Below, piece after piece: positions 45,743 through 64,000 of a stretch of DNA of 64,000 nucleotides (position 1 is the first letter of the stretch; each line of letters begins with the position of its first letter). The stretch covers positions 416,001 to 480,000 of the forward strand of contig CAWDVP010000002.1 in assembly GCA_963805945.1 (NCBI GenBank), read 5' to 3'. The stretch is from Vulcanimicrobiota bacterium (GTDB lineage: Bacteria > Vulcanimicrobiota > Vulcanimicrobiia > Eremiobacterales > Eremiobacteraceae). Both the position numbers and the translations under genes were made by a program. Below the pieces are notes generated by a model. That model had not been told where the DNA came from, searched no databases, and worked only from the letters and a program-made list of their open reading frames with translations.

Positions 45743-45746
45743 CCGC

Positions 45747-46259
45747 CTACTTGTGCGCTACGGGCGCGTGGTACAGCGACAGCACGCTGTTGACGTACGC
45801 GGCGGTCTCGGCGTACGGCGGGATGCCCTTGTAACGCGCGACGGCTCCCGAACCGGCGTTGTACGCCGCGAGCGCGAGTGAGACGTCGCCGTGGTACTCG
45901 CGCAGCAGATCGCTCAGATGTTTGGCGCCGCCCGCCACGTTCTGCTGTGGATCCCACGGGTCGAGCACGCTGTAGGAGCGTGCGGTCGCCGGCATGAGCT
46001 GCATGAGCCCCATCGCGCCGGCGCTCGAGACGGCCGACGGATCGCCGGCGGACTCGACGCGGATGACGGCTGTGACGAGCCGCGGATCAACGTGATTGGC
46101 TTTGGATTGCGCGGCGACGATGGTGTCGAGCTGGCGCTGCGGCATCGAATGAGGACCCTCGCCAAAGGGAAGGAAGCCGCCGCCGCTGCAGCCCGCAAGG
46201 ACCGCGGCGAGGCTGACGAGCGCCGTGCGCCAGAATGCCCCTGAAGCGGCATCCGCCAA
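45747..46259 (-). CDS. Lytic transglycosylase (SLT) lipoprotein
   Basis: LAGC lipobox; VES, AVSSAGAMGLMQLMP, ALAAYNAG, ET..YV. Confidence 0.93.
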   Translation of the reverse strand: MADAASGAFWRTALVSLAAVLAGCSGGGFLPFGEGPHSMPQRQLDTIVAAQSKANHVDPRLVTAVIRVESAGDPSAVSSAGAMGLMQLMPATARSYSVLDPWDPQQNVAGGAKHLSDLLREYHGDVSLALAAYNAGSGAVARYKGIPPYAETAAYVNSVLSLYHAPVAHK

Positions 46260-46362
46260 GACTCATGAGCTCCCTTCGTCGTTCTCTGGCCCTGGTTTTC
46301 CACGTCCCGCGGCTCTCTACATCTATAGTATCGGCCGCAGTGCGGGTGCTCACGAAGGTCTC

Positions 46363-46842: not shown

Positions 46843-48522
46843 ATGCGTCTTCACACATTCTCCCTCAGCGCGGCTGCCGCGCTCGCCCTGCTGTCTGCCG
46901 CACCGGCCCTCGCCGCCCCGCCGGCGGTCGGCTCGCTCGCGCCGGACTTCTCGCTTGCCACCACGACCGGCAAGGCGGTCAAGCTCTCCAGCCTGCGCGG
47001 CCACGTCGTCGTGGTGAATTTCTTCGCCACCTGGTGCCCGCCGTGCCGGGCGGAGACGCCCGATCTCATCAGCGCATCCGGGGCGTTCGCGCCGCGCGAC
47101 GTCACCTTCGTGGGCGTCGACGTCAAAGAATCGGCCCAGCTCGTCTCCGAGTTCGCCTCCGCCAAGGGCATCGGGTACACGCTCGTGCTCGACACTGACG
47201 GCAAAGTGAACGACGCGTACGACGTGCGCGCGATACCGACGACCTATGTGGTCGGCCGCGACGGCCGCATCCAATACCGCCAGGTCGACCAGCTGTCCAA
47301 CGCCGTGCTGGCAAGCGCGCTCAACTCCGTGCTCGCGGGCCGGACGCCGAACGAGTCCGCTCTCGCGCTCAAATTCGATGCCATCTCCGGCGACGCCACC
47401 GCTCAGGTCAACGCCCTGCTCGCCCAAGCCCGCACCGCGCAAGCCCGCCGCGACAAGGCGGCAGCGCTTGCGGCTGCAAGTCATGCCATCGACGCCGGCG
47501 TCGCCGCGAACAAGAAGCTTGACGATCTGCAGAGCGCCGACGATCAGGCGTCGATCAACTACTTCTCGAGCACGCGCGAGCGCGATACGCTCGGCGCGGT
47601 GCTCGCATCCGCCTATGGCCTGCGCGCGACGCTCGCGTCTAACCCGAAGACGCGCGACGCCGATCTCGAGCAAGCCGCGCTGCTGCTCGGCCAGAAGGCT
47701 GAGGACGAAGAGCGTTTTGCAGAAGCGATGGGCTACTTCAAGCAGGCGGCGCAGCTCGCGCCCAAGGACACCAAGGCGCTCGACGGCGAGTACCTCGCCG
47801 CGTACGAACTGCGAGATTATGCGACCGCGCTCGCCATCGCGCAGGCGGAGGCGCGCATCGCGCCCACCGACCCGGAGAGCTGGCTGACGCTGGCGTCGTC
47901 GTACAACTCGCTCAAGCAGTACCCCAGCGCGACCAGGGCGGAGCAGAACGCGCTGATCCTCGCCGGCGTCGATTACGGCTTGCATCCATCGAAGAAGCGC
48001 GACTCGTATGAAGTCGGCCGCGTGTATCTCAAGATGGGGCGCACCACCATTCTGGCCGGCGATGCGACCACCGCCGGTGCGTATCTGGCCAACGCCTCGA
48101 AGTACGCGCCGGGCACCATCGTCGCGCAGCAGGCGGACGAGCAGCTCGCCGCGCTCTCGCCGCAGCCGGTGTACGTCGCGGTATCGGGCGCCAGCGCGGT
48201 GTCGGCCCAGGCCTCGCAGCCGGCGAAGCTATGGGTGACGGTGCGCAATCCGGCCGCGCAGGAGCGGCTGGTGCATCTCTCGGCGGTCAACGTGCCCAAG
48301 AAGTGGGTCCTCTCGTTCTGCTACGATAAGGTCTGCGATCCGTACAAGAGCGACGTGACGATCGGTGCGAACGCGACCCGCCGCGTCGAGCTCCAGGTCG
48401 TGCCGCTCTCGCCGACCAAGGGCGCGTGGGGCATGACGCTGGCGCCGACCGGGGTCGATCAGATGGACGTCAACGTGGACGCAAAGACGGCGAAGACCAG
48501 CATCACGGTGCTCGCCTCGTAA
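46843..48522 (+). CDS. Exported TlpA-like thiol-disulfide oxidoreductase with TPR region and C-terminal beta domain
   Basis: Signal peptide; APDF.L, NFFATWCPPC, IPTT; TPR-like helices; FCYDKVC in C-terminal domain. Confidence 0.85.
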   Translation: MRLHTFSLSAAAALALLSAAPALAAPPAVGSLAPDFSLATTTGKAVKLSSLRGHVVVVNFFATWCPPCRAETPDLISASGAFAPRDVTFVGVDVKESAQLVSEFASAKGIGYTLVLDTDGKVNDAYDVRAIPTTYVVGRDGRIQYRQVDQLSNAVLASALNSVLAGRTPNESALALKFDAISGDATAQVNALLAQARTAQARRDKAAALAAASHAIDAGVAANKKLDDLQSADDQASINYFSSTRERDTLGAVLASAYGLRATLASNPKTRDADLEQAALLLGQKAEDEERFAEAMGYFKQAAQLAPKDTKALDGEYLAAYELRDYATALAIAQAEARIAPTDPESWLTLASSYNSLKQYPSATRAEQNALILAGVDYGLHPSKKRDSYEVGRVYLKMGRTTILAGDATTAGAYLANASKYAPGTIVAQQADEQLAALSPQPVYVAVSGASAVSAQASQPAKLWVTVRNPAAQERLVHLSAVNVPKKWVLSFCYDKVCDPYKSDVTIGANATRRVELQVVPLSPTKGAWGMTLAPTGVDQMDVNVDAKTAKTSITVLAS

Positions 48523-48555
48523 TCACTCCGCCGCCTCGTAATCACCTCGCCGCCG

Positions 48556-48628
48556 ATGTAGGGGCCGACCTTTAGGTCGGCCCTTCTTTCAAGGCCCTCA
48601 GGTGCGACCTGAAGGTCGCACCCTACAT
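48556..48628. repeat. Inverted REP doublet (REPIN-like), family A
   Basis: ATGTAG-GGGCCGACC-TTTA-GGTCGGCCC (48556-48583) and the inverted copy GGTGCGACC-TGAA-GGTCGCACC-CTACAT (48601-48628). Confidence 0.85.
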
Positions 48629-48685
48629 TAAGGCGTTGGTCCCAGCCCTCAAACAGGTGTGTCCCACTAGACAAACTACCGATAA

Positions 48686-48729
48686 GTGGAGTATAGTGGG
48701 GCAAAGTGGCTCACTGTGGGGCTTGGTGC
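48686..48729 (+). promoter_or_regulatory. MraZ-binding direct repeats upstream of the dcw operon
   Basis: GTGG at 48686, 48696, 48706, 48716 and GTGC at 48726, exact 10-bp period. Confidence 0.85.
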
Positions 48730-48736
48730 CTCTATT

Positions 48737-49176
48737 ATGAGTTCTCTCCCGAAATTCACGGGACAATTCGAACATTCCCTCGACGAGAAAGGTCGGCTGA
48801 CCATTCCCGCCCGCTTCCGCGCGCGTCTCGGCGACCACTTCGTCCTGACCATCGCTCCGCCCGAGCCCTGCCTTGCGATGTACCCGGACTCGGCCTGGTC
48901 CGAGTTCTGCGCCAAGCTCGAAGCCGCCCCGCGCAAGGATGCGCAGTACCGCAGCTTCGTGCGCCATCTCTTCGCGCACACCGAAGAGGTCACGCTGGAC
49001 GCAGGGACGGTTGCTCATCCCGCCCGCGCTGCGCGAGTCACGCACATCTGGAACGCGACGCGGTGCTCGTCGGCGCGCTCACGCGGATCGAACTATGGTC
49101 GTCGGCGGCCTGGCTCAAGGCGAGCGCCGCGCCGGACCACATGGCCGACCTGATGACCGAACTTGGACTCTACTAG
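48737..49176 (+). CDS. mraZ: MraZ transcriptional regulator (frameshifted)
   Basis: F.GQFEHSLDEKGRLTIPARFR; second repeat D.QGRLLIP..LR, G...RIELW. Confidence 0.92.
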
Positions 49177-50123
49177 CCATGCGCCGGTCATGCTCGCGGA
49201 GATCATCGACGCGCTCGCTCCTGCAGCAGTGCAAAGACGGTTTCTGCAGCTGGGCAAAGTGCGGCTCCGCTCTTCGTCGACGCACGTTCGGCGCAGGCGG
49301 ACACACGCCGCGATCCTCGACTGCATCCCCCGCAGCCGCGTCATCGCGATCGACGCGGACCCGGAAGCCTATGCTCGGGCGCGTGCGCTGCGCGATGCCT
49401 ATCCCGGTCGCCTCACGCCCGTGCACGCCAATTTCTCCAGACTCGCCGATGCGCTGGAGAGCTCGCCATGCGCGACGTAGACGGCATCATGTACGACCTC
49501 GGCATGTCGTCGCTGCAGCTGGCCGACGCCGCTCGCGGCTTCGCCTTTTCCGGCACGGGCGAGCTCGACATGCGCCTCGACCCGACTTCGGACGCGGCGA
49601 GCGCCGCGCAGCTGCTCGCCACCGCGCGCGAGGGGGAGACGCGGACATCATCTGCGAATTCGGCGACGAGCGCCACGCGCGGCGCATCGCGCGTCAGATC
49701 GTCAAACGGCGCGAGCGCTCGCCGCTGCGGACCACCTCGGATCTCGTCGCGGCGGTGCTCTCGCGCCCAACGGCAAGCCGCGCGCAAGCGCCGCTCGGCG
49801 ATCCATCCGGCGACGCGCACCTTCCTGGCGCTGCGCATGGCGGTCAATTCGCGATCTCGCGCAGCCTCGAGCACAGCCTCGCAGACGCGGTGCGCTGCGT
49901 CCGGCCCGGCGGCCGCATCGTCGGTCATCAGTTTCCATTCCGGCGAGGATCGCGTCGTGAAGCATCAGTTCGCCGCATGGCGGCGCGCCGGCGAAGCCGA
50001 GGTGCTGACCCGCAAGCCCGTCTCGCCGACGCAGACCGAGGTCGCGGCCAACCTGCGCGCCCGCAGCGCCAAGCTGCGCGGTGGCGGAGCGCATCGCAGC
50101 GCCGCTGCAGGGGAGCGAACTGA
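49163..50123 (+). CDS. rsmH: 16S rRNA m4C1402 methyltransferase (frameshifted)
   Basis: HAPVMLAE, FGAGGH, DLGMSSLQL, LDMR, HPATRTF.ALRMAVN, ISFHSGEDR.VK, RARSAKLR. Confidence 0.9.
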
Positions 50124-50124
50124 C

Positions 50125-50584
50125 ATGGCCGCCGCGCGGCATCCAAATAAGATAGAAACGACAGGTCGCCTCCGCCGGTGCCGGCGGGAGCCGCGCGCCG
50201 CGGCGCACCGGCCGCGTGGTGCGCCGCACCAACGCGCAGACCGCCCGGCTCATCGCATCGATCCGGCGCCGTCATCATGGTGCTGGCGTATGTCGGCCTG
50301 ATCGCCGGGCTCGCGCAGCAGACCTATCGCCTCGACGCCGACCAGACGCAGCAAGCATCGCTCATCCTCACCAACAACGCCCTGCATCAGCCATCGCGGC
50401 GCTGCAGTCGGTGGCGCGGCTCGAAGCCGCGGCCAAGGCGCTGCACATGACCGAGCGCGCACATCGCCGTCATCGTCTTGCCGGCGACAAGCGCCAAGCC
50501 GACGACCACGGCGCTCGGCGCCAGGCTCGCGAGGTGAAACGCTTGTTGTTCGCGCCGTTGCGCGCGCAGCGGCGACGGCCGTGA
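50125..50584 (+). CDS. ftsL: FtsL-like cell division protein (frameshifted)
   Basis: Position between rsmH and ftsI; single TM, then coiled-coil fragment LQSVARLEAAAKALHM. Confidence 0.55.
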
Positions 50585-52408
50585 AAGACAAAGAGCGCAG
50601 CCGGCTGCGCGTCCGCGCCTTCCCATCTTCTGGGCGTTCGTCTTCGTGAGCGGCTTGCTCGGCCGCCCGGCTCTACATCGTCCAGATGCGCGACGGCAAG
50701 CCTCGCCGCGCTCGCCGTCGAGCAGCAGCAAGCGACCTTTCCGATGAGCGGCCGGCGCGGCACATCGTCGACCGCTTCGGCATGGTCTTCGCGAGCACGT
50801 CGCCTCCGTGCAGGTGTTCGCGCAGCCGCCCGACGTGCGCCGACGCTCACGCCGGACGCGCTTGCGCTCGCGCCGCTGCTCGGCCGGCCGGCGCCGCTGC
50901 TGGAACGTCGAGCTGAGCGAGAAGACCACCTTCGTGTTCCTCGATCGCAAGCGTCCGCAGGCGATCGCCAAGGCCATCGATCGCCTGAAGCCTCACCGGC
51001 GTCGGCACGCGCGAAGAGCCGACTGGGCTGCGCGTGCGACCGCAGTGCCGCATCGGATCGACAGTCATGGGATTCACGGGCATCGACAATCAAGGGCTCG
51101 CCGGCATCGAGTATCAGTTCAACGATGTGCTCGGCGGGACGGCCGGGGACGCGTCACGAGGAGACGGACGCGGCCGGCGACCGATGCCGTTCGGCCGCGA
51201 GTCGTGCGGGCGGCCGCACGCCGGCACGACCGTCGTGCTGACCATCGACCGCACGCTGCAGTACGCGGCCGAAGAGATACTGAGCGCAAGACGGTGCGCG
51301 CTACCACGCGCGCGACGGCGCGAGCCGATCGTCATGCGCGCTAGCACGGGCGAGATATTGGCGCTCGCCAATTACCCCGAACTTCGATCCGAGCCGATTC
51401 GCCGCGTCGCCGGCGGACGCGTGGAAGAACCGCGCGATCACCGATCCGTACGAGCCCGGCTCCACGTTCAAGCTCATCACCGCCACCGCGGCGCTCGACT
51501 CGGGCAAAGTCACGCTCGTCGACACGTTCGCCGCGCAAGTCAACGAGATCGACGTCGGCGGCGCGTCATCCACAACGCCGATGACGGCCTCATGGCGTCG
51601 GGCCACGAGCGCGAGACGCTCGACTGACATCATCACCTATCTCGCACAACGTCGGCGCGGCGCAAGTCGCGCTGCGCGTCGGGCAAGCAGACGATGTGCG
51701 ACTACATCAATCGCTTCGGTCTCGACGAGCCGACGCGGCGTCGACCTGCCGGGCGAGAGCGCCGGCATCGTCGGAACTCGCCGGACGAATGGTGGGGGTC
51801 GCGCTCGGCCACGATCGGCGTTCGGCCAAGGCGTCTCGGTGACCGCGCTCGCGATGGCGCGCGCGTACGCCGACGATCGCCAACGGCGGCACGCTCATGC
51901 GGCCGCTCATCGTCCGCGAGCTGCGCGACGCCGGACGGCACATCATCAGACAATATCCGACCCGCAAGCCGGTGCGCCGCGTCATGTCGCCGCAGACCGC
52001 GGCGGCATTGCTCACCATCCTGCGCGACGTCGTCAAAGCGCGGCACGGGCACGAACGCGTCGCCATCCCGGGCTATGCGATCGCCGGCAAGACAGGCACG
52101 GCGCAGATGGTGATCGGCGGCGGCTACGGCCGGGCGCGTACACGCGTCGTTCATCGGCATCGTGCCCGCCGACAAGCCGCAATACGTCATCCTGGTGAAC
52201 GATCGAGCGGCCGCAGCGGCGCCTACTACGGAGGCATCGTCGCCGCGCCGGCCTTCCGCGAGCTGGCCCGGCGCGTGCTGTGGCGCGAGGGCGTCCTGCC
52301 GCAGCACAGCGCGCCGGCGGTCGAAGTCGTCGGGGGCGACCGACGGCACCTGCTCCGGCTCGCGGGACGACGCGGGAGCCGAGACGAAGCGATGAGAAAA
52401 CGGCTGTG

Positions 52409-52409
<1 letters not shown>
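50581..52409 (+). CDS. ftsI: Class B penicillin-binding protein FtsI-like (heavily frameshifted)
   Basis: [40 protein letters not shown] (SxxK), [12 protein letters not shown]. Confidence 0.88.
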
Positions 52410-53912
<1,503 letters not shown>

Positions 53913-53916
<4 letters not shown>

Positions 53917-55310
53917 GCCGCCTGACGCTCGGACACTTCCTCAGCGCGTCGGGCGGCGGCTGGTGCGCGACGACGCCGCGACGGCGACGCCGACTTCTCG
54001 CCGAGCACGGACTCGCGCAGCCTGCGACGCCGGCGATGCGTTCGTCGCGCTGCGCGGGCCGAACTTCGACGGGCATGACTTCGTCCGCGCCGCGCTCCCG
54101 CGGGCGCCGGCGCGCTCGTGGTCGAGAAGCTCGACATGGTGCCGGCCGGTTGCGCCGTGCCGGTCGTCGTCGTCGCAGATACGAAGGAAGCGTATCTGGC
54201 GGGGCCGCAGCCGCGCGACGCCTCGCGACCCGCACGCACGTGGTCGCGGTCACCGGCAGCAACGGCAAGACGACGACGAAGGCGATGGCGGCTGCAGCTC
54301 ATCGGCAAGTTCCGCCGCGTCGTGGTCGGCACGCCGCAGAACGAGAACAACGAGCTCGGCGTGGCCAAGCTGTGCTACGCGTCTGGGCGACGATTCCGTC
54401 GAGGTCGCGATCGTCGAGTTCGGCGCGCGTCACCCGGGCGAGATCGAGGAGCTGGTCGCGATCGCCGCACCGGATGTCGGCATGCTTGACAACATCGGCG
54501 AGGCGCATCTCGAGTACTTCACCGACCGCCGAGCTCGCGCGCACGAAGTTCGCGCTGTTCGAGCAGGGCGCGCGCGCCGTCTGCAACGCCGCCGACGAAT
54601 GGACGCGCATGCTCGCGGCGAGGCCGGCATCGACGCGCGCGCGCTGTGGGCCGGCTGTGCGGCGATGCGGACGTCCCCGGGCTCGTGATCGAAGCGGGTG
54701 AGCCGAACGGCGGCACGGGTCGCGCGATCTCGCTCGGCGCCTCGCATGCGTTTGCCGCCTGGCATCTGCTGGGCGAACACCATCTGCGCGACGCGCTGCT
54801 CGCCGCCGGCGCGGCGCTGCAATGCGGGCTGAATTCGATGAGGCCATTGACGGTTTCGGCGACCTGCATCTGCCGCCAGGGCGCTTCGAATCGCATGCGG
54901 CGCCGGGCGGCGCCACGATCGTCTACGACGCGTACAACGCGAGCCCCACATCCATGCGCCATTCCTTGCTGCGCACTTCGCCGCGATTCCCGCGCGCCGC
55001 CGCATCGCGGTGCTCGGGCAGCATGGCAGAGCTCGGCGAAGGCGCGGCAGCCGCGCACAAAGCGACCGGTGCGGAGCGGCGCAGGCCGGAATCGACGAGC
55101 TGTACTGCGGCGGCGAGCGTGCACAGGCGCTGGCGGCCGGCGCGATCGCGCGCGGGCATGTCCGCGCACGCGGTCCTCACCTATCTGACGAATGAGGAGA
55201 TCGCCGCAACGCTGCGCGCGCGCTTGCGCGAAGGCGACGCGTGCTGCTCAAAGGCTCGCGCGTGCAGCGATGGAGGAGATCCTGGAGGCGTGCTCATCGA
55301 GTGGCCTATG
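53913..55310 (+). CDS. murF: UDP-MurNAc-pentapeptide synthetase (frameshifted; 3' end 55300-55377)
   Basis: LRGPNFDGHDF, AVTGSNGKTTTK, NENNELG, GARHPGEI, NIGEAH, DAYNASP.SM, LG.M.ELG, LKGSR. Confidence 0.9.
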
Positions 55311-55419
55311 GAGCGGCCTATGGAGCGGTCGACTTCAGTCGACCGTCCGAATGGTGACGCCGCAGACGGTCGAATAGATTCGACCGCTGCATCTCATCGA
55401 ATACATTCGACCGCTACAT
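55308..55419. repeat. Cluster of family-B REPs inside the dcw operon
   Basis: ATGGAG-CGGTCGAC-TTCA-GTCGACCG (55320-55345), inverted copies at 55367-55392 and 55397-55419, and a duplicated head at 55308. Confidence 0.8.
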
Positions 55420-55429
55420 CGTTCACGGT

Positions 55430-56128
55430 GCGGGCGCCGGAACTGCCGGCGCGCATCCCGCGTTCCCATCCGCACCGCTCGTGATCGTTCCGGAGAAGAT
55501 CTTGCCGCGGTGGTCGCCGCTGCGTGCGCGGCATCAGCCCGCCGGACGACGTCGTATGCGTCTCGGAGACGGTCGGTGGCGATCGCGCAAGGCCGCTCGA
55601 TCCCCGCAGAGTCGATCCGGCCGAGCGGCTCGCCGACATGCTCGCAGAGCGTGCCGGGTCGTATGCCACGATGAATCAGCCCGAGTCCATGCAGCTCGTG
55701 CATCGAGAACGTCGGCGACGCTCAAGGTGCTGGCGGCTGCAGCCGCCGGCGCTGGCCGGTCGCCTCGTCGGCCGGCGCGGCGATTTCTATCGCGTCCTCG
55801 GACCGGCCGTGGCGGAGATCGACGGCTATACCGGCACGATGCCGCCGTACGAGCGCCACATCGTCCTCGGCCCGCGCGAGACCGGACACGGCCGCCGCAG
55901 CACGATCGCGCAGGCATGCGGCGCGCACGCCGCGGTGGTGGACGCGAACGATCTCAGGAAGGTCGAAGGTGCTCGGCGCAAGCGCAGCGGGTCGGACGCG
56001 CGATGCCGTGCGGCGAGTGCCTGCGCCACAATCCGCCGGCAACAGCGACCAGCAGACGCCGGTGGTCGTGCTTTTGAAATACCGCCCGGCCGGCGGCGCG
56101 CCCGCGCAGTCGCCGTTGTCGCGCATGA
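55430..56128 (+). CDS. F420-0:gamma-glutamyl ligase (CofE)-like protein inserted in dcw (frameshifted, start uncertain)
   Basis: Stitched frames: VPIRT..GEDL, DDVVCVSET.VAIAQGR, GDFYRVLG...AEIDGYTGTMPPYERHIVLGP, AVVDANDL, N.AGNSDQQTPVV. Confidence 0.78.
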
Positions 56129-57100
56129 TGTCTGGATGCGCAGATCATCCTCGGGTTCGCCATCGGCGGCGTCGTCGCCGCGGTGGTGGTCCCCGCCACC
56201 ATCGGCTGGCAGCGCCGCCGCGATGCTCGGCCAGCATGATCTACGAAGACGGGCCGTCAGTCGCATGGCGTGAAACAGGGCACGCCGACGATGGGCGGCA
56301 TCGCGTTCGTCGGCGGCGGCGGCGATCGGTTCGCGCTGGGCGGCGCCTCTCGCGCAGTCGAGCACGATTGCCTCATGCTGATGCTCGTCGTGTGCGCGGG
56401 CGCGATCGGCTTCGCCGACGACTATCTCAAACTGTCCTGCGCCGCCCCCTCGGGCTGCGCGCGCGCTGGAAGTTCTTGCTGCTCTTCGTGCTCGCCGCGG
56501 GCTTCGTGGCGTACGAGGCCCAGGCGGACCCGCACCATTTCACGTCGCTGTGGTTCACCGGCTGGGTGACGCTGGCGCCGTGGCTGTGGGCGCTCCTCGC
56601 CGTCTCGCGATCGTCGGGCGCCGCCAACGCGGTGAACCTCACCGACGGGCTCGACGGGCTCGCCGCCGGCACGGCGATCCCCGCCGCTGCTGCTGCTCGG
56701 CTTCATGGCGCCGAGCACGCTCGCGGTGGCGGTCGTCGGAGCCGCGACGGGCTTCCTCTACTTCAACACGCATCCGGCGCGCATCTTCATGGGCGACACC
56801 GGCTCGCTCGCGCTCGGCGCACTGCTCGGCGGGCTGGCGATCCAGATGGACTGGCTGCTGCTGCTCGCCGGTGCTCGGCATCGTCTTCGTGGCGGAGGCG
56901 CTCTCGGTGATGGCGCAAGTGCTCGAGCTTCAAGCTCACGGGCAAGCGCATCTTCCGCATGACGCCGCTCCATCACCACTTCGAGATGCTCGGTTGGCCC
57001 GAGACAACGCGTCACGCTCGTCTTCATCCTTGCGTCCGCCGCCGCGAGTTTCATCACGTTCTTCGGCTTGCTGCTCGCGCTCACGCGAGGCCATCACTGA
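56125..57100 (+). CDS. mraY: Phospho-MurNAc-pentapeptide transferase (frameshifted)
   Basis: [56 protein letters not shown]. Confidence 0.93.
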
Positions 57101-57103
57101 CAG

Positions 57104-58513
57104 ATGCCGAACGACGCTGCAGTGATGTTCCACGACGGCGACCGGGCGCTGGTGATCGGCGTCGGCCGCAGCGGCATGGCCACGGCGGCTGTGCTGCGCT
57201 ACCGCGGTCTTTCCGTCACCGCGTACGACGACAAAGCGCCGGATCGAGCTCACGTGCGCAGCGCGCCGACCTCGCGCGCATCAGAGTGGAACTCGTCGGC
57301 CCCGAAGCCCTGCGCCGCGCTTCCGAGGGCGCGAGCACGCCATCCTCTCGCCGGGCGTGCCGCTTCAACAGTCCGGCGGTGCTCGAGGTCCAGCGTGCCG
57401 GCGTCCAGGTGATCTCCGAGATCGAAGCCGCCTATCGCATCGCGCAAGGCGCCGATCATCGCCATCACCGGCAGCAAGGGCAAATCGACGACCACCGCGC
57501 TCATCGGCCATCTGCTGCGCGCGGCCGGCATTCCGAGCGCGCGTCGGCGGCAACATCGGCAATCCGCTCATCCTCGAGACAGCCGCCGCTGCGGCCGACG
57601 AGTGGGTCGTCGCCGAGGTCTCGAGCTTCCAGCTCGAAGGCATCTCCACGTTCCGCCCGCGCATGAGCGCGCTGCTCAACCTCACCCCGGATCACCTCGA
57701 TCGCTACCCTTCATGGAAGAGTACCGCGAAGCCAAGTATCGCATCTTCGCCAATCAGAGGCGCGGGCGACGTGTTCATCGGCAACGCTGCGGACGAGCAT
57801 TCGCGGCGCCCTGCGCACGGGCGCCGGCCGGCACGGTCCCATGCCGGCGTTCTGGTTCGCCGCCGACGAACGGACCGCTGCTCGCGATGTCGCTGCCGAC
57901 GGGAACATCGTATGGCGCGCGACTAGGACGTGGCCGCCATCCCGCTCCTCGACGTCGCGGATCTGCGCATCCGCGGCGCGCATAACATCGCCAACGCCAT
58001 GGCCGCATCGCTTGCCGAGCTTGCTGGCGGGCGCGCAGCATCGAGGCGGTGCGCGAAGGGCCTGCGCTGCTTTGAGCCATGCCGCATCGTCTGCAGCTCG
58101 TCGCGGAGCACGCGCGGCACCTGGATCGACGACAGCAAAGCTCCAAATCCGGATGCGGTCGTCAAAGGCGCCTGCAGTCGTTCGACACCCCGATCATCCT
58201 CATCGCCGGCGGCACGCAGCAAGAAGACCGATTTCGCCGAGATGGCCGGCCGCGTCGCAGCGCGCGAAGCTGGTCGTGCTCATCGGCGAGAGCGCGCGCG
58301 AGATCGCGGCGCTCATCCAAGCGCCGAGCGTCGTTCGCGCAGAACATGGAGGAGGCGGTCGGACCGCGGCCGCAGAGCGCGCCGAGCCGGCGACGTCGTC
58401 CTGCTCTCGCCCGGCTGCGCTTCGTTCGACATGTTCGAGAGCGCCGAACAGCGCGGCGAGCGTTCGCCGAGCCGCGGTCGCGCAGCGCGTCAACGCCGGA
58501 GCGAGCCGCATGA
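57104..58513 (+). CDS. murD: UDP-MurNAc-L-Ala:D-Glu ligase (frameshifted)
   Basis: [57 protein letters not shown]. Confidence 0.92.
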
Positions 58514-59655
58514 TGCAGCGCCGCGCGCCGGACGCGATCTTGCTCGTCATCACCGGCCTGCTCACCGCGGTCGGCGCGATCATGGTGTTCTCCGCCTCGT
58601 CGGTCGTCGGCATCACGCAGTACCACGACGCGGCGCATTTCTTCAAGCGCGAACTGCTGTGGATCGGGGTGGGCGCGCGCCGCCTGCTGGCTCGGCATGA
58701 AGCTCGACTACGGCGGAGCTGCGCCGCGCCGCGCCCTGGTTGTTCGGCGTCGCGGTCGTGCTGCTCGTCGGCGTGCTCTTCCCGCACATCGGCACCATGG
58801 AGGGCGGCGCGCGGCGCTGGTATGCGTTCGGCTCGTTCTCGTTCGAGCCGTCGGAGTTCGCCAAGCTGCGCCATCGTGCTGTTGCATCGCGCAAGCCTGG
58901 TCGCGCGATCGCGAAGATGGCGCGCGCGTTTCGCGCGATCGGTTTTCCCGCGCTCTTCTGGGTCGGCGTGTGCTTCATGCTCGTGCATGCGCCAGCCGGA
59001 CTTCGGCACGGCGACGCTCTTCTTGATGACCGCGTTCGTGATGCTGTTCGTCGGCGGTGCGCGGATCACGCATCTCTTCATCGACGCTCGCCGTCGCCGT
59101 GCCCGCGCTGCTCGCGTTCGTCTTTTCGAGCCAGTACCGGCGCGAACGCTTCACCGCGTTTTTCACCCGTGGCAGGATCCGCAAGGACGCGGCTACCACA
59201 TCCTCCAGTCGCTCTATGCGCTTGGATCGGGCGGCCTGTTCGGCGTCGGCCTGGGGCAGAGCCGCCAGAAGTTCGGCTATCTGCCCGAGCAGTACACCGA
59301 CTTCATCTTCTCGGTCATCGGCGAGGAGCTCGGGCTCATCGGCGCGGTCGCCGTGCTGGCCCTGTTCCTGCTGCTCGCGTATCGCGGGTTGCGCATCGCG
59401 ATGAAGGCCGAGGATCGCTTCGGCTTCTTCCTGGCGGTCGGCATCACCGCGCGATCGCGCTCCAGGCGTTCATCAATATCGGCGTCGTCACGTCGACGTG
59501 GCCGGTGACGGGCGTGCCGCTGCCGTTCATCAGCTACGGGGGCACGTCGCTGGTCATGAGCTTGTTCGGTGTCGGCCTGCTGGCCAGCATCTCGCGCGGT
59601 CGATCGCGGGCGGCGCTTGCCGCGGACGAACGGACGAGGGATCCACGCAGTGCGC
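58510..59655 (+). CDS. ftsW: SEDS peptidoglycan glycosyltransferase FtsW (frameshifted; end approximate)
   Basis: MVFSAS, GARRW, EPSEFAK, QPDFGT, YLPEQYTDFIFSVIGEELG, TGVPLPFISYGG. Confidence 0.92.
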
Positions 59656-60845
59656 ATCCTGCTCACCGGCGGCGGCACGGGCGGTCATCTGTACCCCGCG
59701 CTGTCACTAGCACAGGCGCTCTCCGGCGCGCCCGCTGACCCTGGGGTCTGCGACCCGAACGACGAGCCGCGATTGGGTTTTCCCAACGACGCACATCAGC
59801 TGATGTTCGTGGGGACGCGCGGCGGCATGGAAAAGGCCATCGTCGAGCGAGCGCATCTCGCCGCTGCGTACGTGCGCAGCCGGCCGTTGTCGCGGACCTC
59901 GTTCGCCGCCGCCGCGAGCGGGCTTGCCGCCAACGTCGTCGGCACGGCGAGGCGATGCCCATCGTCCGGAAGTTCAAGCCCGAAGTCGATCATCGCCACC
60001 GGCGGCTACGCGAGCGTGCCCGTGGTGATGGCCGCGGCCGCGCTGCGCGCGTCGGGCGCGCTGCGCGCCAAGATCGTGCTCATCGAACCCAACGTCGAGC
60101 CGGGCCTCGCCAATCGCCTCATGGCCGCGCCGCCGACGAGGTGTGGGGAGCCTATCCGAAGAGACGGCCGCGTTCTTTCGGCCGCAAGTTCGTCGCCACG
60201 GGCATCCCGGTGCGGCCGGAGATCTACGCGCCGGCCCGACCCAGGTCGAAGCGCGGCGCAGCCTCGGGCTGGATCCCGGAAGCTCACCACCGTCATCGTG
60301 TTCGGCGGCAGCCAGGGCGCGCGCCAGATCAACGTCGCGGTGAGCGGCATGGTGGCGCGGCGCCGCCTGCCCGCGGCCTGGCAGGTCTTGCACATCACAG
60401 GTGAGCGCGATTACAGTGGATGGCGACCGAGCGCAAGGTCGAGGCGAACGCCAACCGCTACCAGCTGGTGCAGTACCAGGACAAAATGGAGCTAGCCTAC
60501 GCGGCGGCAGATGTGGCCGTCTGCCGAGCCGGCGCCTCGACCCTGGCCGAGCTGGCCGTGGTCGGCCTGCCCTCTATCCTCATGCCCTACCCGCACGCCG
60601 CCGACGACCACCAGCGCAAGAACGCCGACGTCTTCGTGCGCCACAACGCGGCGGTGCTCGTCGAGGACGCCAAGCTCGACGCCGACTCGCTCTACTGGGC
60701 GCTCACCGGGGTGCTCGAGGCCGACAAACTGGCGGCGATGCGCTTCGGCGCGGTGTCGCTGTCGCATCCGCGCGCGTTGCAGACGATGATCGAGCGGATC
60801 ATCAAAGGGCAGATCGGTGTGACCCACGTGACAAAGCATGCGTAG
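59650..60845 (+). CDS. murG: MurG glycosyltransferase (frameshifted)
   Basis: TGGGTGGHLYP, TGGYAS, EPN..PGLANR, FGGSQGA, CRAGASTLAE, HQ..NA. Confidence 0.93.
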
Positions 60846-60894
60846 TGCCACCGAAGGGGGCGGATGCTGGGACACCTAAACAAGTCCACCTGAA

Positions 60895-62314
60895 ATGATT
60901 TCGTACAAACACGTCCATTTCGTCGGTATCGGCGGCGTCGGCATGAGCGCCATAGCGCGCGTGCTGCTCGCCATGGGCATCGCGCGTGTCCGGCTCCGAC
61001 CTCAAGACCACCAACACGCTCGAGAAGCTGCGTCTGCTCGGCGCGCGCGTCCATCTCGGCCACGGCTCGGGCAACATCAAGGGCGCCGACGCGGTGGTCA
61101 TCTCCTCCGCCATCCCGCTCGACAACCCCGAGGTCGTCGCCGCGCAGCGCGCGCACGTGCCGGTGCTGCAGCGCGCCGAGATGCTCGCGCAGATCATGGC
61201 CGACAAGCGTTCGGTGGCGGTGTCGGGCACGCACGGCAAGACCACCACGACCTCGATGATCTCGCTCGTGCTCGACGCGGGCGGCTTCGAGTCGACCGTG
61301 CTCATCGGCGGCGAGGTGAACGATCTCGGCGCCAACGCGCGGCTCGGCAGCGGCGACGTCGTCGTCGCGGAAGCCGACGAGAGCGACGCGTCGTTCCTGC
61401 GGCTCACGCCCACCTATGCTGTCGTCACCAATATCGAGAACGATCATCTCGGCTACTATCGCGATCTCGAACATCTCATCGAGACGTTCTCGCTTTTCAT
61501 CAACCGCGTGCCGCCGCATGGCTGCATCATCGCGTCGGCCGACTGCAAAGCGGTCGGCGAGCTCATCCGGCGCTTCCACGAATCCCCCAAACTGCTCGGC
61601 GATCCCGCCGTCATCACCGCCGGCTTCGCGTCTGCGGCGACGGTGCGCGCCGACGACGTCCGCCTGGCCGATTTCGGCTCGCGCTTCGCGGCGTATTACC
61701 GCGATGAGCCGCTCGGCGACCTGGCCCTACGCGTGCCGGGGCGCATCAACGTGCACAACGCGCTGTGCGCGCTCGCCGTCGGGCTGCAGTTCGGCGTGCC
61801 GTTCGAGAAGATCGCGCACGCGCTCGGCCGCTTCCGCGGCGTCGCGCGGCGCTTCCAGATACTGTACGACGGCGACGCGCTCAAGATCGTCGACGACTAC
61901 GCGCACCACCCGACCGCGGTCGAAGAGACGATCGCGGCGGCGCGGGCGTATTGGCCCGGGCACATCGTCGTCGCGTTCCAGCCGCATCGCTACAGCCGCA
62001 CCGCATACCTGTTCCGCGACTTCGCGCACGCGCTGCTCGGCGCCGACGAGATCATCGTCACCGACATCTACGCGGCAGGCGAAGTGCCGCTGCCGGGCGT
62101 GCGCGCCGAATCGATCGTCGAGTGCGTCCGCGATCTCAACGCCGCGAAGAAGGTGACGTACCTGCCCAAGCCCGCGGACGTGCTCGCGTACCTGCAGCGG
62201 ACCGTCGGCTCGGGCGATCTCGCGCTCACCCTCGGCGCCGGCGACATCGGCGGCGTCGCGCACGAGCTGGCGGCGTCGCTTTCGGCCGCGGACGCCGGCG
62301 TCGGTTCAGTGTGA
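60895..62314 (+). CDS. murC: UDP-MurNAc:L-Ala ligase (one indel near 60985)
   Basis: HFVGIGGVGMS, SGTHGKTTTTSM, EADESD, TNIENDHL, DDYAHHPT, FQPHRYSRT. Confidence 0.95.
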
Positions 62315-62324
62315 GGCGCGCGCG

Positions 62325-63245
62325 TTGAGCAGCTTGACCCCGCACGCCGGCTTCGAATTGAACGACGCGCAGCGCGACCTGCTCAAGGCGACGCTCGGCA
62401 AGAGCATCGAATTCGACGTGCCGCTGGCGCCCAAGACGTCGATGCGAGTCGGCGGACCGGCGGCGGCGTATGCCGAGGTCGGCGCCATCGTCAACCTGGC
62501 GGCCGGCTTGAGCTTGTGCGAACTCGAGAAGATCCCATGGACGATCATCGGCTTCGGCAGCAACCTGCTGGTGAGCGACGCGGGCTTTCCCGGCTTGGTC
62601 GTGCGGCTCGTCGGCGATTTCACCAAAGTGACGATCAACGGCTCGATGGTGCGGGCCGGCGGCGCGACGCCGATGGTCTCGCTGTGCCGCGAGGCCGCGC
62701 TCGCGGGTCTTGCCGGCACGGAGGCGCTGGTCGGAATCCCCGGCACGGTCGGCGGCGCGGTGCGCATGAACGCCGGCACGGACGTCGAGTTCGGCGACAT
62801 CATCAAACGCGTCGAAGTGCTCGTCGCGGGCGAGCCGATGCAGGGCTTCACGCTGCCGGAGTTCGCATACCGCCGCTCCTCGCTCGACCGGCGGGCGGTC
62901 GTCACCGCTGCCGAGCTCGAGCTGCACCCTGGCGACACCTCCGAGCTGCAGGCGGAACTGAAGCGCCGCATCGCGCACCGCAACAAGACGCAGCCGCTGG
63001 ACCTGCCCAACTCGGGCAGCATCTTCCGCAATCCAGAAGGTGACTATGCCGCCCGGCTCATCGAGAGCGCCGACTGCAAGGGCCTGACGATCGGCGGCGC
63101 GCAGGTCTCGGAAAAGCACGCCAACTTCATCGTCAACCGAGGCGGCGCCACGTGCGCGGACGTGCTGGCCTTGATCGAGCAAGTACGGGAGGCTGTCAAG
63201 CAGCGCCACGGCGTCGAGTTGGAGCTCGAGGTCCACGTCCTCTAA
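62325..63245 (+). CDS. murB: UDP-N-acetylenolpyruvoylglucosamine reductase
   Basis: RVGGPA, G.GSNLL, GIPGTVGGAVRMNAG, QPL..PNSGSIFRNP, HANFIVN, LELEV. Confidence 0.96.
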   Translation: MSSLTPHAGFELNDAQRDLLKATLGKSIEFDVPLAPKTSMRVGGPAAAYAEVGAIVNLAAGLSLCELEKIPWTIIGFGSNLLVSDAGFPGLVVRLVGDFTKVTINGSMVRAGGATPMVSLCREAALAGLAGTEALVGIPGTVGGAVRMNAGTDVEFGDIIKRVEVLVAGEPMQGFTLPEFAYRRSSLDRRAVVTAAELELHPGDTSELQAELKRRIAHRNKTQPLDLPNSGSIFRNPEGDYAARLIESADCKGLTIGGAQVSEKHANFIVNRGGATCADVLALIEQVREAVKQRHGVELELEVHVL

Positions 63246-63344
63246 CGCCCCCTGTCCCGCAAGAGGATGACGTTTCGTCGAGTCGGAAACGGACGGGCGT
63301 CGGGGTGCGATTACCGCATGCCCATCATGAGGAGGCTCTTCAAC

Positions 63345-64000
63345 ATGAGAAGCTGGTCCAAGCTTTTCTTAGTGGCGATTTTCGTCGTGGCATTGCGCGC
63401 TCCGGCCGGCGCAGTCACCTTCACGGCGACCATCAGCGCCGTGCCCACCACGTATAACGGCTCGTGCCCGGGCGCCATCAAGTTCACGGGCGGCGTGAGC
63501 GCGTTCAACTGGGCTGCTGGCGAGAAGAAAGAGATCCAGTATCAATGGATCCGCAGCGATAGTTCGAAGTCGACCATCAAGACGCTCGACTTCAGCGACG
63601 GCTCGAAATCCAAATCGGTCTCGACGACCTGGACGTTGGGCGGCCCCGGCACGCAGTACAAAGGCTACGAGACGCTCGCCGTGGTGTATCCGCGCTCGGG
63701 CATCTCGAACCAGGCGCATTTCACGCTGAACTGCACCGGCACCGCGGTCACGGTCGTGGTGATCCAGATGGCGACGCCGCCACCGGTCACCCTCAGCGCG
63801 ATGCTGCAGGCCCATCCGGTCTCGGCGCCCGGCCCGTGCCCGTTCCCGTTCCAGTTCTTCGGCAGCATCACGGCCGGTGCGTTTCCGGCGGGAGTGACGC
63901 CGGAAGTCGACTATCAGTTCGTGCGCAGCAGCGGCGAGAAGTCCGACGTGCACACGCTGACGTTCGACGCGGCCGGCGGGACCAAGAAGATCAGCGACGT
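63345..64000 (+). CDS. Secreted protein with tandem Ig-like beta repeats (runs off window; absent from ORF track)
   Basis: AGGAGG RBS; signal peptide MRSWSKLFLVAIFVVALRAPAGA; repeats GSCPGAIKFTG..IQYQWIRSD and GPCPFPFQFFG..VDYQFVRSS. Confidence 0.8.
   Translation, partial: MRSWSKLFLVAIFVVALRAPAGAVTFTATISAVPTTYNGSCPGAIKFTGGVSAFNWAAGEKKEIQYQWIRSDSSKSTIKTLDFSDGSKSKSVSTTWTLGGPGTQYKGYETLAVVYPRSGISNQAHFTLNCTGTAVTVVVIQMATPPPVTLSAMLQAHPVSAPGPCPFPFQFFGSITAGAFPAGVTPEVDYQFVRSSGEKSDVHTLTFDAAGGTKKISD

What the first reader, a model, noticed from the sequence alone, without database searches (positions are those of the whole stretch)
55430..56128. CofE/F420-ligase-like gene wedged between murF and mraY: candidate peptidoglycan-precursor amide ligase
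Seen in sequence: the dcw order is canonical except for one extra ~230-codon gene between murF and mraY. It appears coupled to mraY through ATGA at 56125-56128, and frameshifts hide it in the ORF track. Stitched frames give PIRT..GED, DVVCVSET..AIAQGR, FYR..G....IDG.TGT.PPY...IVLGP, AVVD.NDL and N.AGN....TP. I recognise this as the CofE-like subfamily annotated 'F420-0:gamma-glutamyl ligase' in organisms such as cyanobacteria and Firmicutes. No other F420 gene is in the window. Established: CofE is an NTP-dependent ligase that activates a carboxylate to form an amide. Some diderm Terrabacteria (Selenomonas, Veillonella) amide-link cadaverine or putrescine to the D-Glu alpha-carboxyl of the lipid intermediate in an ATP-dependent step that helps tether the outer membrane, and glaucophyte plastid peptidoglycan carries N-acetylputrescine there. 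Inference: a position between the last soluble ligase and the lipid-I enzyme suggests this fold modifies the stem peptide (diamine, amino acid or amide addition) and is a new wall-modification enzyme.
Basis: partly seen in the sequence, partly recalled or inferred. Interest (0 to 1): 0.85.

Follow-up and report, generated by a model that had tools for sequence, protein, structure and literature searches.

The report
CofE-like domain fused to MurF
In this soil bacterium of the phylum Eremiobacterota, the last soluble cell-wall ligase MurF carries an extra enzyme-like domain related to a cofactor-F420 ligase, always encoded just before mraY, so it is probably an undescribed step in cell-wall precursor synthesis.

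Summary
The coding region is real, but it is not a separate gene. A frameshift-aware alignment reads window 53913-56124 as one MurF + linker + CofE-like protein, 625 of 731 residues identical to a 734-aa metagenomic fusion, with 30 frame hops and no stop in the path. Neighbouring dcw genes are equally frameshifted, so this is assembly noise, not decay.

Clean homologs pass Pfam PF01996 but fail NCBIfam's CofE equivalog cut-offs. A confident AlphaFold model matches only CofE in the PDB.

In 80 Eremiobacterota-type loci the gene follows murF in 78 of 78 testable loci and precedes mraY in 79 of 79, mostly with 4-nt overlaps. It is more conserved than MurF or MraY. MurF fusions form one clade that includes the window's nearest relatives.

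More distant relatives are fused to Amidase_3, AsnB-type amidotransferases, a polysaccharide deacetylase or membrane anchors. They occur in Negativicutes, Armatimonadota, Cyanobacteria and Sericytochromatia.

No F420 gene was seen in the window. The best reading is an NTP-dependent amide ligase dedicated to murein precursors. Its substrate and amine partner are unknown, and the chemistry is inferred, not shown.

The parts
52409..53912 (+). murE (meso-DAP type), directly upstream; frameshifted in the window
   Evidence: Frameshift-aware alignment to the L003 MurE: 375 of 494 residues identical, 19 frame hops. The L003 protein scores NF001126 495 bits against a cut-off of 373.
53913..55299 (+). 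MurF part of the fused gene (UDP-MurNAc-tripeptide:D-Ala-D-Ala ligase)
   Evidence: Aligned to residues 1-~460 of the fusion P0001, with 18 frame hops. P0001 scores TIGR01143 327.9 bits against a cut-off of 288.6. The window frame piece gives a partial TIGR01143 hit at E 2.9e-15.
55300..55418 (+). Linker of ~40 codons, read in one frame without a stop. It holds a 12-nt tandem repeat (55299-55328) and, by eye, a 27-nt imperfect duplication (~55371-55424).
   Evidence: The linker residues ERSTSVDR.N.DAA.GR..STA are shared with P0001. The linker of the L003 fusion is modelled as disordered, pLDDT <50 at residues 468-510.
55419..56124 (+). CofE-like (PF01996-fold) domain, the finding itself, with 12 frame hops
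   Evidence: alignment. All family-invariant residues seen are present. Homologs pass Pfam PF01996 at 49-54 bits against a cut-off of 25. AF2 model pLDDT 92.1. Foldseek 2phn_A E 3.4e-10, TM 0.57.
56125..56128 (+). ATGA: mraY start codon overlapping the stop codon of the fused gene
   Evidence: The overlap is conserved in L003 and L009. A start codon at the 4-nt overlap position is available in 63 of 80 loci.
56125..57099 (+). mraY, directly downstream; frameshifted in the window
   Evidence: Alignment to the L003 MraY: 204 of 319 residues identical, 12 frame hops. PF00953 and TIGR00445 partial hits in the window frame. The L044 MraY scores TIGR00445 241 bits against a cut-off of 192.
57104..58512 (+). 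murD
   Evidence: Alignment to the L003 MurD: 314 of 464 residues identical, 19 frame hops. The L003 protein scores TIGR01087 396.6 bits against a cut-off of 212.
59650..60836 (+). murG
   Evidence: Alignment to the L003 MurG: 330 of 394 residues identical, 8 frame hops. Glyco_tran_28_C hit in the window.
60956..63242 (+). murC then murB; this stretch reads almost cleanly
   Evidence: Mur_ligase, Mur_ligase_M and Mur_ligase_C hits in one frame, and FAD_binding_4 plus MurB_C in another.

Best explanation
The window, from an Eremiobacterota (Vulcanimicrobiota) genome, encodes a MurF whose C-terminus is joined by a flexible ~40-residue linker to a ~235-residue CofE-fold domain. Its stop codon overlaps the mraY start codon.

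CofE-fold enzymes activate a substrate carboxylate with GTP and condense it with an amine (PMC8498797 and PMC10861534, passages read). My reading is that this subfamily is not an F420 enzyme. I take it to be an NTP-dependent amide ligase dedicated to the murein precursor pathway. It would act on MurF's product, UDP-MurNAc-pentapeptide, or on lipid I/II at the membrane face. It would convert a free stem-peptide carboxylate (D-iGlu alpha or meso-DAP epsilon) into an amide with an amine partner that is not yet known: a diamine, an amino acid or ammonia.

Shown: gene structure, fold, subfamily identity, phylum-wide synteny, strong conservation and the fusion partners. Inferred: catalysis, nucleotide use, substrate, site and amine.
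For: 1. One reading of MurF, linker and CofE-like domain: 625 of 731 residues identical to fusion P0001, with no stop in the path.
2. Fold: AF2 pLDDT 92.1, pTM 0.89. The only PDB matches at E<=0.001 are five CofE chains of entries 2phn, 2g9i and 7uld, at TM 0.53-0.57; the next hit is at E 0.87.
3. Pfam PF01996 is passed by 5 of 5 clean homologs tested.
4. Synteny: murF lies directly upstream in 78 of 78 loci that hold upstream DNA, and mraY directly downstream in 79 of 79 that hold downstream DNA (80 loci examined). A start codon at the 4-nt overlap is available in 59 of 80 loci (murF to cofE-like) and 63 of 80 (cofE-like to mraY).
5. It is more conserved than MurF in 63 of 63 loci and than MraY in 62 of 63, with median identity to L044 of 67.8% against 56.6% and 58.6%.
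6. Fusions to MurF: 12 full-length and 1 partial among the 120 proteins listed, and L003 and L009 among 78 loci. All 14 fused rows sit in one 15-row clade.
7. Relatives at 35-45% identity are fused to other wall enzymes. Among 60 proteins scanned, 6 carry Amidase_3, 7 carry GATase and/or Asn_synthase, and 1 carries Polysacc_deac_1. About 40 Amidase_3 fusion clusters were seen. Others carry N-terminal membrane anchors.
8. Polar invariants (T24, D49, Q62, R64, D139, D178, N180, D181, N206) are kept from Eremiobacterota to Negativicutes and cyanobacteria. VDAN aligns with TDTN (D150-N152) of A. fulgidus CofE.
9. There is precedent for PF01996 reuse outside F420. Chlamydia CT611 complements E. coli folC (PMC1971073, passage read).
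10. MurE is the meso-DAP type, so two free stem carboxylates exist.
Against: - No biochemical evidence of any kind exists.
- Only the N-terminal third aligns well to CofE by sequence.
- In the SKAEGR motif of CofE, K and E are replaced by I and Q (AIAQGR).
- The C-terminal ~55 residues of CofE, which include R234 that stacks on F420 (PMC10861534), appear to have no counterpart (weak alignment at 7.4 bits). The active site may therefore be remodelled or lost.
- The roles of D150 and neighbouring residues as metal ligands are recalled, not read.
- The fused model gives pTM 0.65 with a disordered linker, so no fixed MurF-to-domain docking is predicted.
- Some fusion partners have no obvious tie to the stem peptide: TPR, PlsY, CDP-alcohol phosphatidyltransferase, HD, adenylate kinase and GNAT.
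- No peptidoglycan chemistry is reported for the one cultured member of the phylum (PMC9758169, passages read).
- dcw linkage outside Eremiobacterota was not tested.
Confidence: 0.5

Rival explanations
1. Non-catalytic adaptor or regulator. On this reading the CofE-like fold has lost ligase activity. It binds a nucleotide or the precursor and couples MurF output to MraY at the membrane.
For: Sequence divergence from CofE beyond the first ~80 residues. K and E of SKAEGR are replaced. The C-terminal CofE segment seems to be missing. It is tethered to MurF by a disordered linker. Relatives carry membrane anchors or are fused to membrane enzymes.
Against: Conservation is higher than for MurF and MraY. 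A set of invariant Asp, Asn, Gln, Arg and Thr residues spans phyla, which is more typical of an active site. The Asp aligned to CofE D150 is kept.
Confidence: 0.15
2. Mpl/MurC-like ligase. On this reading it joins a free or recycled stem peptide, or L-Ala, to the D-lactyl carboxylate of UDP-MurNAc. That carboxylate is chemically close to the phospholactyl carboxylate of F420-0 that CofE uses. The product would feed MurF.
For: It would explain both the MurF fusion, since the product would be MurF's substrate, and the Amidase_3 fusions, since that enzyme frees the peptide from MurNAc. The Amidase_3 fusions show no N-terminal hydrophobic signal by eye. CofE chemistry on a lactyl carboxylate is described in PMC1971073 and PMC10861534 (passages read).
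Against: A salvage step would hardly be the most conserved gene of the dcw core. murC is present and intact in the window. Membrane-anchored and AsnB-fused relatives are not explained. The gene order places it after murF, not before.
Confidence: 0.12
3. Supplier of MurF's dipeptide substrate, that is, a D-Ala-D-Ala (or D-Ala-X) ligase that replaces or supplements Ddl.
For: The acyl-phosphate plus amino-acid chemistry is the same. It is fused to MurF. No Dala_Dala_lig family was hit among 41 long ORFs of the window. The dcw cluster runs murC-murB and then a hypothetical gene, with no ddl.
Against: ddl may lie elsewhere in the genome; whole genomes were not searchable here. Cyanobacteria and Bacillota that carry relatives have ordinary Ddl (established knowledge, not tested here). 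Amidase_3, AsnB and membrane-anchor fusions do not fit.
Confidence: 0.05
4. Bona fide CofE that adds glutamates to F420-0, placed in the dcw cluster by chance. A variant of this rival is a CT611-type folylpolyglutamate synthase.
For: Source annotations read 'coenzyme F420-0:L-glutamate ligase'. The proteins belong to PF01996 and have the CofE fold. CT611 is a precedent for folate use.
Against: NCBIfam CofE equivalogs score 35-47 bits against cut-offs of 180.65, 274 and 304 in 6 of 6 Eremiobacterota-type proteins, and P0459 from a Negativicute hits none. No F420 or folate family was found among 41 window ORFs. The position between murF and mraY is invariant. The protein is fused to MurF. The segment that carries R234, which contacts F420, appears absent.
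Confidence: 0.04
5. Decayed pseudogene or assembly artefact with no function.
For: Twelve frame hops fall within ~700 bases. No Pfam hit was found on the raw frames.
Against: The frameshift density is the same in the essential neighbours murE, mraY, murD and murG and across 48-61 kb. There is no stop in the aligned path, identity to P0001 is 85%, and all invariant residues are kept. Intact orthologs are present in all 80 loci.
Confidence: 0.02

Closest known systems
[quoted passage not shown]
   Same: Same Pfam family (PF01996) and same fold (TM 0.53-0.57, 23-25% identity). The N-terminal ~80 residues align by sequence. VDAN aligns with TDTN at CofE 150-152.
   Different: It fails the CofE equivalog cut-offs. 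The SKAEGR motif reads AIAQGR. It seems to lack the last ~55 residues of CofE, including R234 (PMC10861534). It sits in the dcw cluster or is fused to MurF, not with F420 genes. Its substrate is unknown.
Chlamydia CT611 (FolC2), a COG1478 CofE homolog that replaces FolC
   Same: A PF01996-family member working outside F420 synthesis, identified from gene context and the absence of cof genes (PMC1971073, passage read).
   Different: CT611 clusters with folate genes, whereas this one clusters with murF and mraY.
MurT/GatD and AsnB/LtsA-type amidotransferases (stem-peptide carboxylate amidation)
   Same: The proposed task is the same: activate a free stem-peptide carboxylate on a precursor and form an amide. 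Some relatives of the domain are fused to AsnB-type enzymes.
   Different: The folds are unrelated: Mur-ligase-like plus glutaminase, or Asn synthetase, against the CofE fold. The comparison rests on established knowledge of those systems, not on a test made here.
Bifunctional Mur enzymes (MurE/MurF, MurF/alanine racemase, MurC/Ddl)
   Same: A Mur ligase fused to another enzyme of the same pathway. NCBIfam models for these fusions appear among the hits of the MurF part.
   Different: The added domain here is not a known murein enzyme. It is joined by a long disordered linker.
Polyamine-modified peptidoglycan of Negativicutes (cadaverine or putrescine on D-Glu, bound by the OmpM SLH domain)
   Same: An amide on the D-Glu alpha-carboxylate whose enzyme is not named in the papers read (PMC10628300, bioRxiv 10.1101/2021.05.31.446380 and PMC5020339; passages). 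Family members occur in Negativicutes of the Sporomusaceae.
   Different: No link between this family and polyamination has been tested. Cyanobacteria, which also carry members, are described as using pyruvylated wall polymers instead (same papers).

Membership tests
Pfam PF01996 / CofE fold | Profile HMM score above the gathering cut-off (25 bits) | tested here: met
   Met by 5 of 5 clean homologs, including the 85%-identical fusion P0001 at 51 bits, and by L040 P0486. The window's raw frame translations gave no hit because of the frameshifts.
Pfam PF01996 / CofE fold | Three-dimensional similarity to solved CofE | tested here: met
   The model of P0019 has pLDDT 92.1. Foldseek gives 2phn_A at E 3.4e-10, probability 1.00, TM 0.57/0.55. 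All 5 matches at E<=0.001 are CofE chains.
Pfam PF01996 / CofE fold | Intertwined homodimer with the active site at the interface | tested here: inconclusive
   A two-copy prediction returned no verdict. This is neither for nor against.
Bona fide CofE/FbiB (F420-0:L-glutamate ligase) | Score above NCBIfam equivalog cut-offs (TIGR01916 180.65; NF009809 274; NF009810 304) | tested here: not met
   Scores are 35-47 bits in P0019, P0061, P0054, P0070, P0001 and the L044 protein. P0459 hits no family.
Bona fide CofE/FbiC-linked pathway | Other F420 genes (cofC/fbiD, cofD/fbiA, cofG/H/fbiC) nearby or in the genome | tested here: not met
   None was found among 41 long ORFs of the window. The immediate neighbours are murF and mraY in the 80 loci. 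Genome-wide presence could not be tested.
Bona fide CofE | C-terminal domain-swapped hairpin with R234 that contacts the F420 chromophore (PMC10861534) | tested here: inconclusive
   The alignment to 2g9i ends at CofE residue 194 of 249, while the query has only ~11-22 residues left. That stretch scored only 7.4 bits, and the Foldseek alignment is not printed.
Bona fide CofE | GTP- and Mn-dependent addition of L-glutamate to F420-0 | not testable with these tools
   This needs an enzyme assay.
MurF (N-terminal part of the fused gene) | TIGR01143 above its cut-off of 288.6, with three Mur ligase domains | tested here: met
   P0001 scores 327.9, P0070 318.6 and L044 MurF 320.4 bits. PF01225, PF08245 and PF02875 are all present. 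The window frame piece gives only a partial hit.
dcw cluster core gene | Fixed position and co-orientation within the cluster across relatives | tested here: met
   78 of 78 loci have murF upstream and 79 of 79 have mraY downstream. Stop/start overlaps are frequent. This was tested within Eremiobacterota-type loci only.
CT611/FolC2-type folylpolyglutamate synthase | Clustering with folate synthesis genes | tested here: not met
   The flanking genes are murF and mraY. No folate family was found among the window ORFs scanned.

The most novel reading that the evidence does not exclude
This subfamily may be the enzyme that amide-links polyamines, or another amine, to the D-Glu alpha-carboxylate of the murein stem. 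That modification tethers the outer membrane through OmpM in Negativicutes, and none of the papers I read names its enzyme. If so, a CofE-fold ligase would be an ancestral envelope enzyme of diderm Terrabacteria. In Eremiobacterota it would be hard-wired into the dcw operon and, in one clade, into MurF itself.
Probability: 0.15. Interest if true: 0.9.

Novelty: new variant of a known kind. Interest (0 to 1): 0.72.

Why it matters
All known cytoplasmic steps of murein precursor synthesis use Mur ligases, ATP-grasp enzymes or amidotransferases. A CofE-fold ligase that is a fixed member of the dcw operon, more conserved than MurF and MraY, would add a new enzyme class to a pathway studied for sixty years.

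It would also correct a widespread annotation, 'coenzyme F420-0:L-glutamate ligase', in organisms where this reading would have no F420 role for it.

The family appears in Eremiobacterota, Armatimonadota, Cyanobacteria and Sericytochromatia, and Negativicutes. That gives a concrete, testable candidate for stem-peptide modifications of diderm Terrabacteria, including the polyamine link that anchors their outer membrane.

Cultured strains carry the gene or belong to lineages that do: Vulcanimicrobium alpinus, Thermosinus carboxydivorans and Sporomusa. The question can therefore be settled by muropeptide mass spectrometry and a simple in vitro assay.

Tried and rejected
- **Raw frame translations.** Pfam and NCBIfam on the raw frame translations of 55358-56907 and on short in-frame pieces gave no PF01996 hit. 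Homolog-guided reading was needed.
- **First genome scan.** It was repeated with the 12-sequence alignment A2. Because only the best 80 of 511 confirmed loci are kept, all 80 are Eremiobacterota-type. Gene context in Negativicutes, cyanobacteria and other phyla stayed unchecked.
- **Cluster members.** Accessions and taxa of the distant fusion proteins therefore rest on the few source names.
- **Homodimer prediction.** Two copies with alignment A3 returned 'no answer' at score 0.00 (the first collection attempt failed). I draw no conclusion from it.
- **MraY fusions.** CofE-like and MraY share one ORF in L040 (P0486, 556 aa). P0209 and P0145 look similar, but their MraY parts are patchy and interrupted by wrong-frame text. 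I treat the MraY fusion as unproven and probably due to indel errors.
- **Literature.** 'cofe + peptidoglycan + murf' gave 0 papers. 'PF01996' gave 4, none on this subfamily. 'cadaverine + peptidoglycan + Selenomonas ruminantium + lipid intermediate' gave 0. 'peptidoglycan + polyamin + Veillonella + ligase + F420' gave 0. 'polyaminat + peptidoglycan' gave 12, none naming the enzyme by title or abstract. One cyanobacterial search was badly framed and useless.
- **Papers not held.** Nocek 2007, Bashiri 2016, Kojima 2010 and Kamio & Nakamura 1987 are not held. The CofE metal-ligand residues and the biochemistry of cadaverine transfer therefore remain recalled.
- **Rejected readings.** A pseudogene and bona fide CofE.
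Full report
**What is in the sequence.** The window has about 68% G+C. Between 49 and 63 kb it carries a division and cell wall (dcw) cluster. The six-frame ORF list is a patchwork there. Pfam and NCBIfam on the raw frames of 55358-56907 found only MurF C-terminal and MraY fragments and no F420_ligase. A single in-frame piece, 55740-55964 (75 aa), searched against longer proteins, gave 341 hits at E<=1e-3. The best was at E 7.9e-29. Most are ~238-aa PF01996 proteins, and the named sources are Candidatus Eremiobacteraeota. Twelve full-length proteins of 717-747 aa, and one partial, combine the three Mur-ligase domains with PF01996.

**Fusion, not a separate gene.** A frameshift-tolerant alignment of the 734-aa fusion P0001 to window 53900-56140 runs from 53913 to 56124. 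It gives 625 of 731 aligned residues identical, 30 frame hops and no stop in the path.
- Eighteen hops lie in the MurF part and 12 in the CofE-like part.
- The linker (about 55300-55418) is read in one frame and shares ERSTSVDR.N.DAA.GR..STA with P0001.
- The linker holds an in-frame 12-nt tandem repeat and, by eye, a 27-nt duplication.
- The nearest genomic relatives, L003 and L009, are 75.6% and 73.4% identical in DNA over ~11.4 kb. They have murF and the CofE-like domain in one stop-to-stop ORF. L003 gives a clean 744-aa protein.
- ATGA at 56125-56128 is conserved in L003 and L009 as the stop/start overlap with mraY. The window has one extra base just upstream. MraY homology starts at 56125.

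**The frameshifts are noise.** Against L003 proteins, murE shows 19 frame hops, mraY 12, murD 19 and murG 8, with no stops in the paths. GC3-phase switches number 6-13 per 2 kb between 48 and 61 kb, against 1-4 in most of the window and 6 at 14-20 kb. murC and murB at 60.9-63.2 kb read almost cleanly. The CofE-like part keeps every residue that is invariant in the family.

**Family and fold.**
- Five clean homologs pass PF01996 at 49-54 bits against a cut-off of 25, but only profile positions 2 to ~82-131 of 218 align.
- NCBIfam's CofE equivalogs score 35-47 bits against cut-offs of 180.65, 274 and 304.
- By sequence, PDB hits are A. fulgidus CofE only, at E ~3e-5 over residues 16-92. With a 62-row profile the hit is at E 2.4e-7, with 'vaivDaN' on 'VIITDTN'.
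- An AlphaFold2 model of P0019 has pLDDT 92.1 and pTM 0.89.
- Foldseek finds only CofE chains at E<=0.001. 2phn_A scores E 3.4e-10, TM 0.57/0.55, 23% identity, and the next hit is at E 0.87.
- A weak alignment of a relative to 2g9i in native numbering places D-A-N on D150-T151-N152. It ends at CofE residue 194 of 249.
- The paper on CofE complexes names G153-C155 and the partner chain's R234 as the front face of the F420 pocket (PMC10861534, section 8 read). The part that bears R234 thus seems to have no counterpart, but the alignment is too weak to be sure.
- The roles of D109, D150 and E208 as metal ligands are my recollection. The papers that would show them are not held.

**Synteny and conservation.** A genome scan with alignment A2 found 511 confirmed loci. 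The best 80 were kept. By title, 61 are Eremiobacterota/Vulcanimicrobiota-type, 8 are unlabelled and 11 bear other phylum names, but all 78 loci kept in the tree nest among Eremiobacterota rows (L015 and L023 were dropped).
- murF lies directly upstream in 78 of 80 loci. L005 and L074 have under 240 nt of upstream DNA.
- mraY lies directly downstream in 79 of 80. L015 ends at the match.
- In three loci (L017, L029, L061) the best MurF match is truncated, and I did not look further.
- A start codon at the 4-nt overlap position exists in 59 of 80 loci (murF to domain) and 63 of 80 (domain to mraY). The script picks the candidate start nearest the stop, which favours overlaps, but chance would give about 5%.
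- Gene labels were checked on L003 and L044: MurE (meso-DAP type), MurF, MraY, MurD and FtsW pass their cut-offs, and MurG falls just below its own.
- Relative to L044, in the 63 loci that cover all three proteins by at least 80%, the CofE-like protein is more conserved than MurF in 63 and than MraY in 62.
- In a quick tree of 94 rows (L015 and L023 dropped), the 14 fused rows sit in one clade of 15 with SH-aLRT 92. The fifteenth row is L005, which lacks upstream DNA.
- A model of the L003 fusion has two confident domains, a disordered linker (residues 468-510) and pTM 0.65. This indicates a flexible tether rather than a docked pair.

**The wider family.** phmmer of P0019 against 1.84 billion representatives gave 672 hits at E<=1e-3 and 79 at E<=1e-30.
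- Pfam on 60 of the best 150 showed the domain, at 35-45% identity, fused to several partners. Six proteins carry Amidase_3, seven carry GATase and/or Asn_synthase, and one carries Polysacc_deac_1. At least eight carry TPR repeats. CDP-alcohol phosphatidyltransferase, PlsY, HD, adenylate kinase and GNAT occur once each.
- Many ~400-aa forms have an N-terminal hydrophobic helix followed by Arg residues.
- Source names place Amidase_3 fusions in Firmicutes/Bacillota MAGs.
- Anchored forms occur in Armatimonadetes, Sericytochromatia, a Pseudanabaenaceae cyanobacterium and Eremiobacteraeota.
- Standalone ~222-aa forms occur in Thermosinus carboxydivorans, Sporomusa carbonis, Methylomusa anaerophila and a 'Negativicutes bacterium' (lineage). 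They share all invariant motifs with the window's protein.
- The Atlas adds clusters from Chloroflexota and Cloacimonadota as leads.
- These names are few and unsystematic.

**Literature.**
- V. alpinus is diderm with thin peptidoglycan. The passages I read give no wall chemistry, and 'F420' does not occur in its text (PMC9758169).
- CofE activates a carboxylate with GTP and adds L-glutamate at a dimer-interface site (PMC8498797 and PMC10861534, passages and one section).
- A COG1478 homolog, CT611, replaces FolC (PMC1971073, passage).
- Negativicutes tether the outer membrane through OmpM to peptidoglycan that carries cadaverine or putrescine on D-Glu. Cyanobacteria and Deinococcus-Thermus use pyruvylated polymers. 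None of the passages names the polyamine-adding enzyme (PMC10628300, bioRxiv 10.1101/2021.05.31.446380, PMC5020339).
- Searches for this family in a peptidoglycan context found nothing.

**Interpretation.** The evidence shows a CofE-fold protein that is a fixed, strongly constrained member of the murein precursor operon, tethered to MurF in the window's clade. Its relatives are repeatedly joined to wall enzymes. The evidence does not show what it does.
- I commit to an NTP-dependent amide ligase acting on a stem-peptide carboxylate of the nucleotide or lipid precursor (confidence 0.5).
- The rivals, in order, are a non-catalytic coupler, an Mpl/MurC-like ligase on the lactyl carboxylate of UDP-MurNAc (which would explain the MurF and Amidase_3 fusions well), a Ddl substitute, a true CofE or FolC2, and a pseudogene.

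**Left unchecked.** Supplementary tables of the OmpM papers were not consulted.

Noticed in passing
window 48000-61000 (and 14000-20000): Indel-type frame errors are concentrated in patches. GC3-phase switches number 6-13 per 2 kb across the dcw cluster, against 1-4 in most of the window. A second patch at 14-20 kb has 6, and the glutamate dehydrogenase ORF there holds only its N-terminal domain. murC and murB right after the first patch are clean. This looks like locally poor consensus in a long-read or strain-mixed assembly.
   Followed up: partly
L040:5992-7662: The CofE-like domain and MraY lie in one 556-aa ORF with no Met at the junction. P0209 and P0145 look similar, but their MraY parts are patchy wrong-frame text. 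This is either a real fusion or a one-base indel error; I could not tell which.
   Followed up: partly
window 55299-55328 and ~55371-55424: The MurF-to-domain linker holds an in-frame 12-nt tandem repeat of 2.5 copies and, by eye, a 27-nt imperfect duplication. Linkers of L003 and L009 are unalignable with it at the DNA level. The tether therefore evolves fast by in-frame duplication.
   Followed up: partly
window 63246-63998: After murB the cluster continues with an ORF for a probable secreted protein that hits no Pfam family, not with ddl or ftsQ/A/Z. No D-Ala-D-Ala ligase family was hit anywhere among the 41 ORFs scanned.
   Followed up: no
window 39894-46262, minus strand: Outer-membrane-related genes lie just upstream of the dcw cluster: apolipoprotein N-acyltransferase (Lnt), a 780-aa ORF with no Pfam hit (42173-44512), LptF/LptG and an SLT lytic transglycosylase. 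This fits a diderm envelope.
   Followed up: no
window 15221-16189: An ORF gives a strong match to Methyltransf_33, histidine-specific SAM methyltransferase of the EgtD type, at E 3.6e-108. It hints at ergothioneine or a related betaine pathway.
   Followed up: no
L007, L009, L011, L013, L019, L027, L037, L038, L068, L071, L075: These contigs are titled Casimicrobiaceae, Binatus, Proteobacteria, Acidiferrales, Rhodospirillales, Dormiibacterota, Alphaproteobacteria or Limnocylindria. They carry the Eremiobacterota-type murF-cofE-like-mraY arrangement and nest among Eremiobacterota rows in the tree. They are probably mis-binned or mislabelled.
   Followed up: partly
P0419 (411 aa, Candidatus Eremiobacteraeota MAG): Eremiobacterota also hold a second, membrane-anchored ~400-aa paralog of the domain, of the type seen in Armatimonadetes and Sericytochromatia. 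Its ~170-aa N-terminal region hits no Pfam family in relatives.
   Followed up: no
window 35843-36631, minus strand: A standalone polysaccharide deacetylase (Polysacc_deac_1, E 5.7e-37) is present. The same family is fused to the CofE-like domain in one distant relative, P0206.
   Followed up: no
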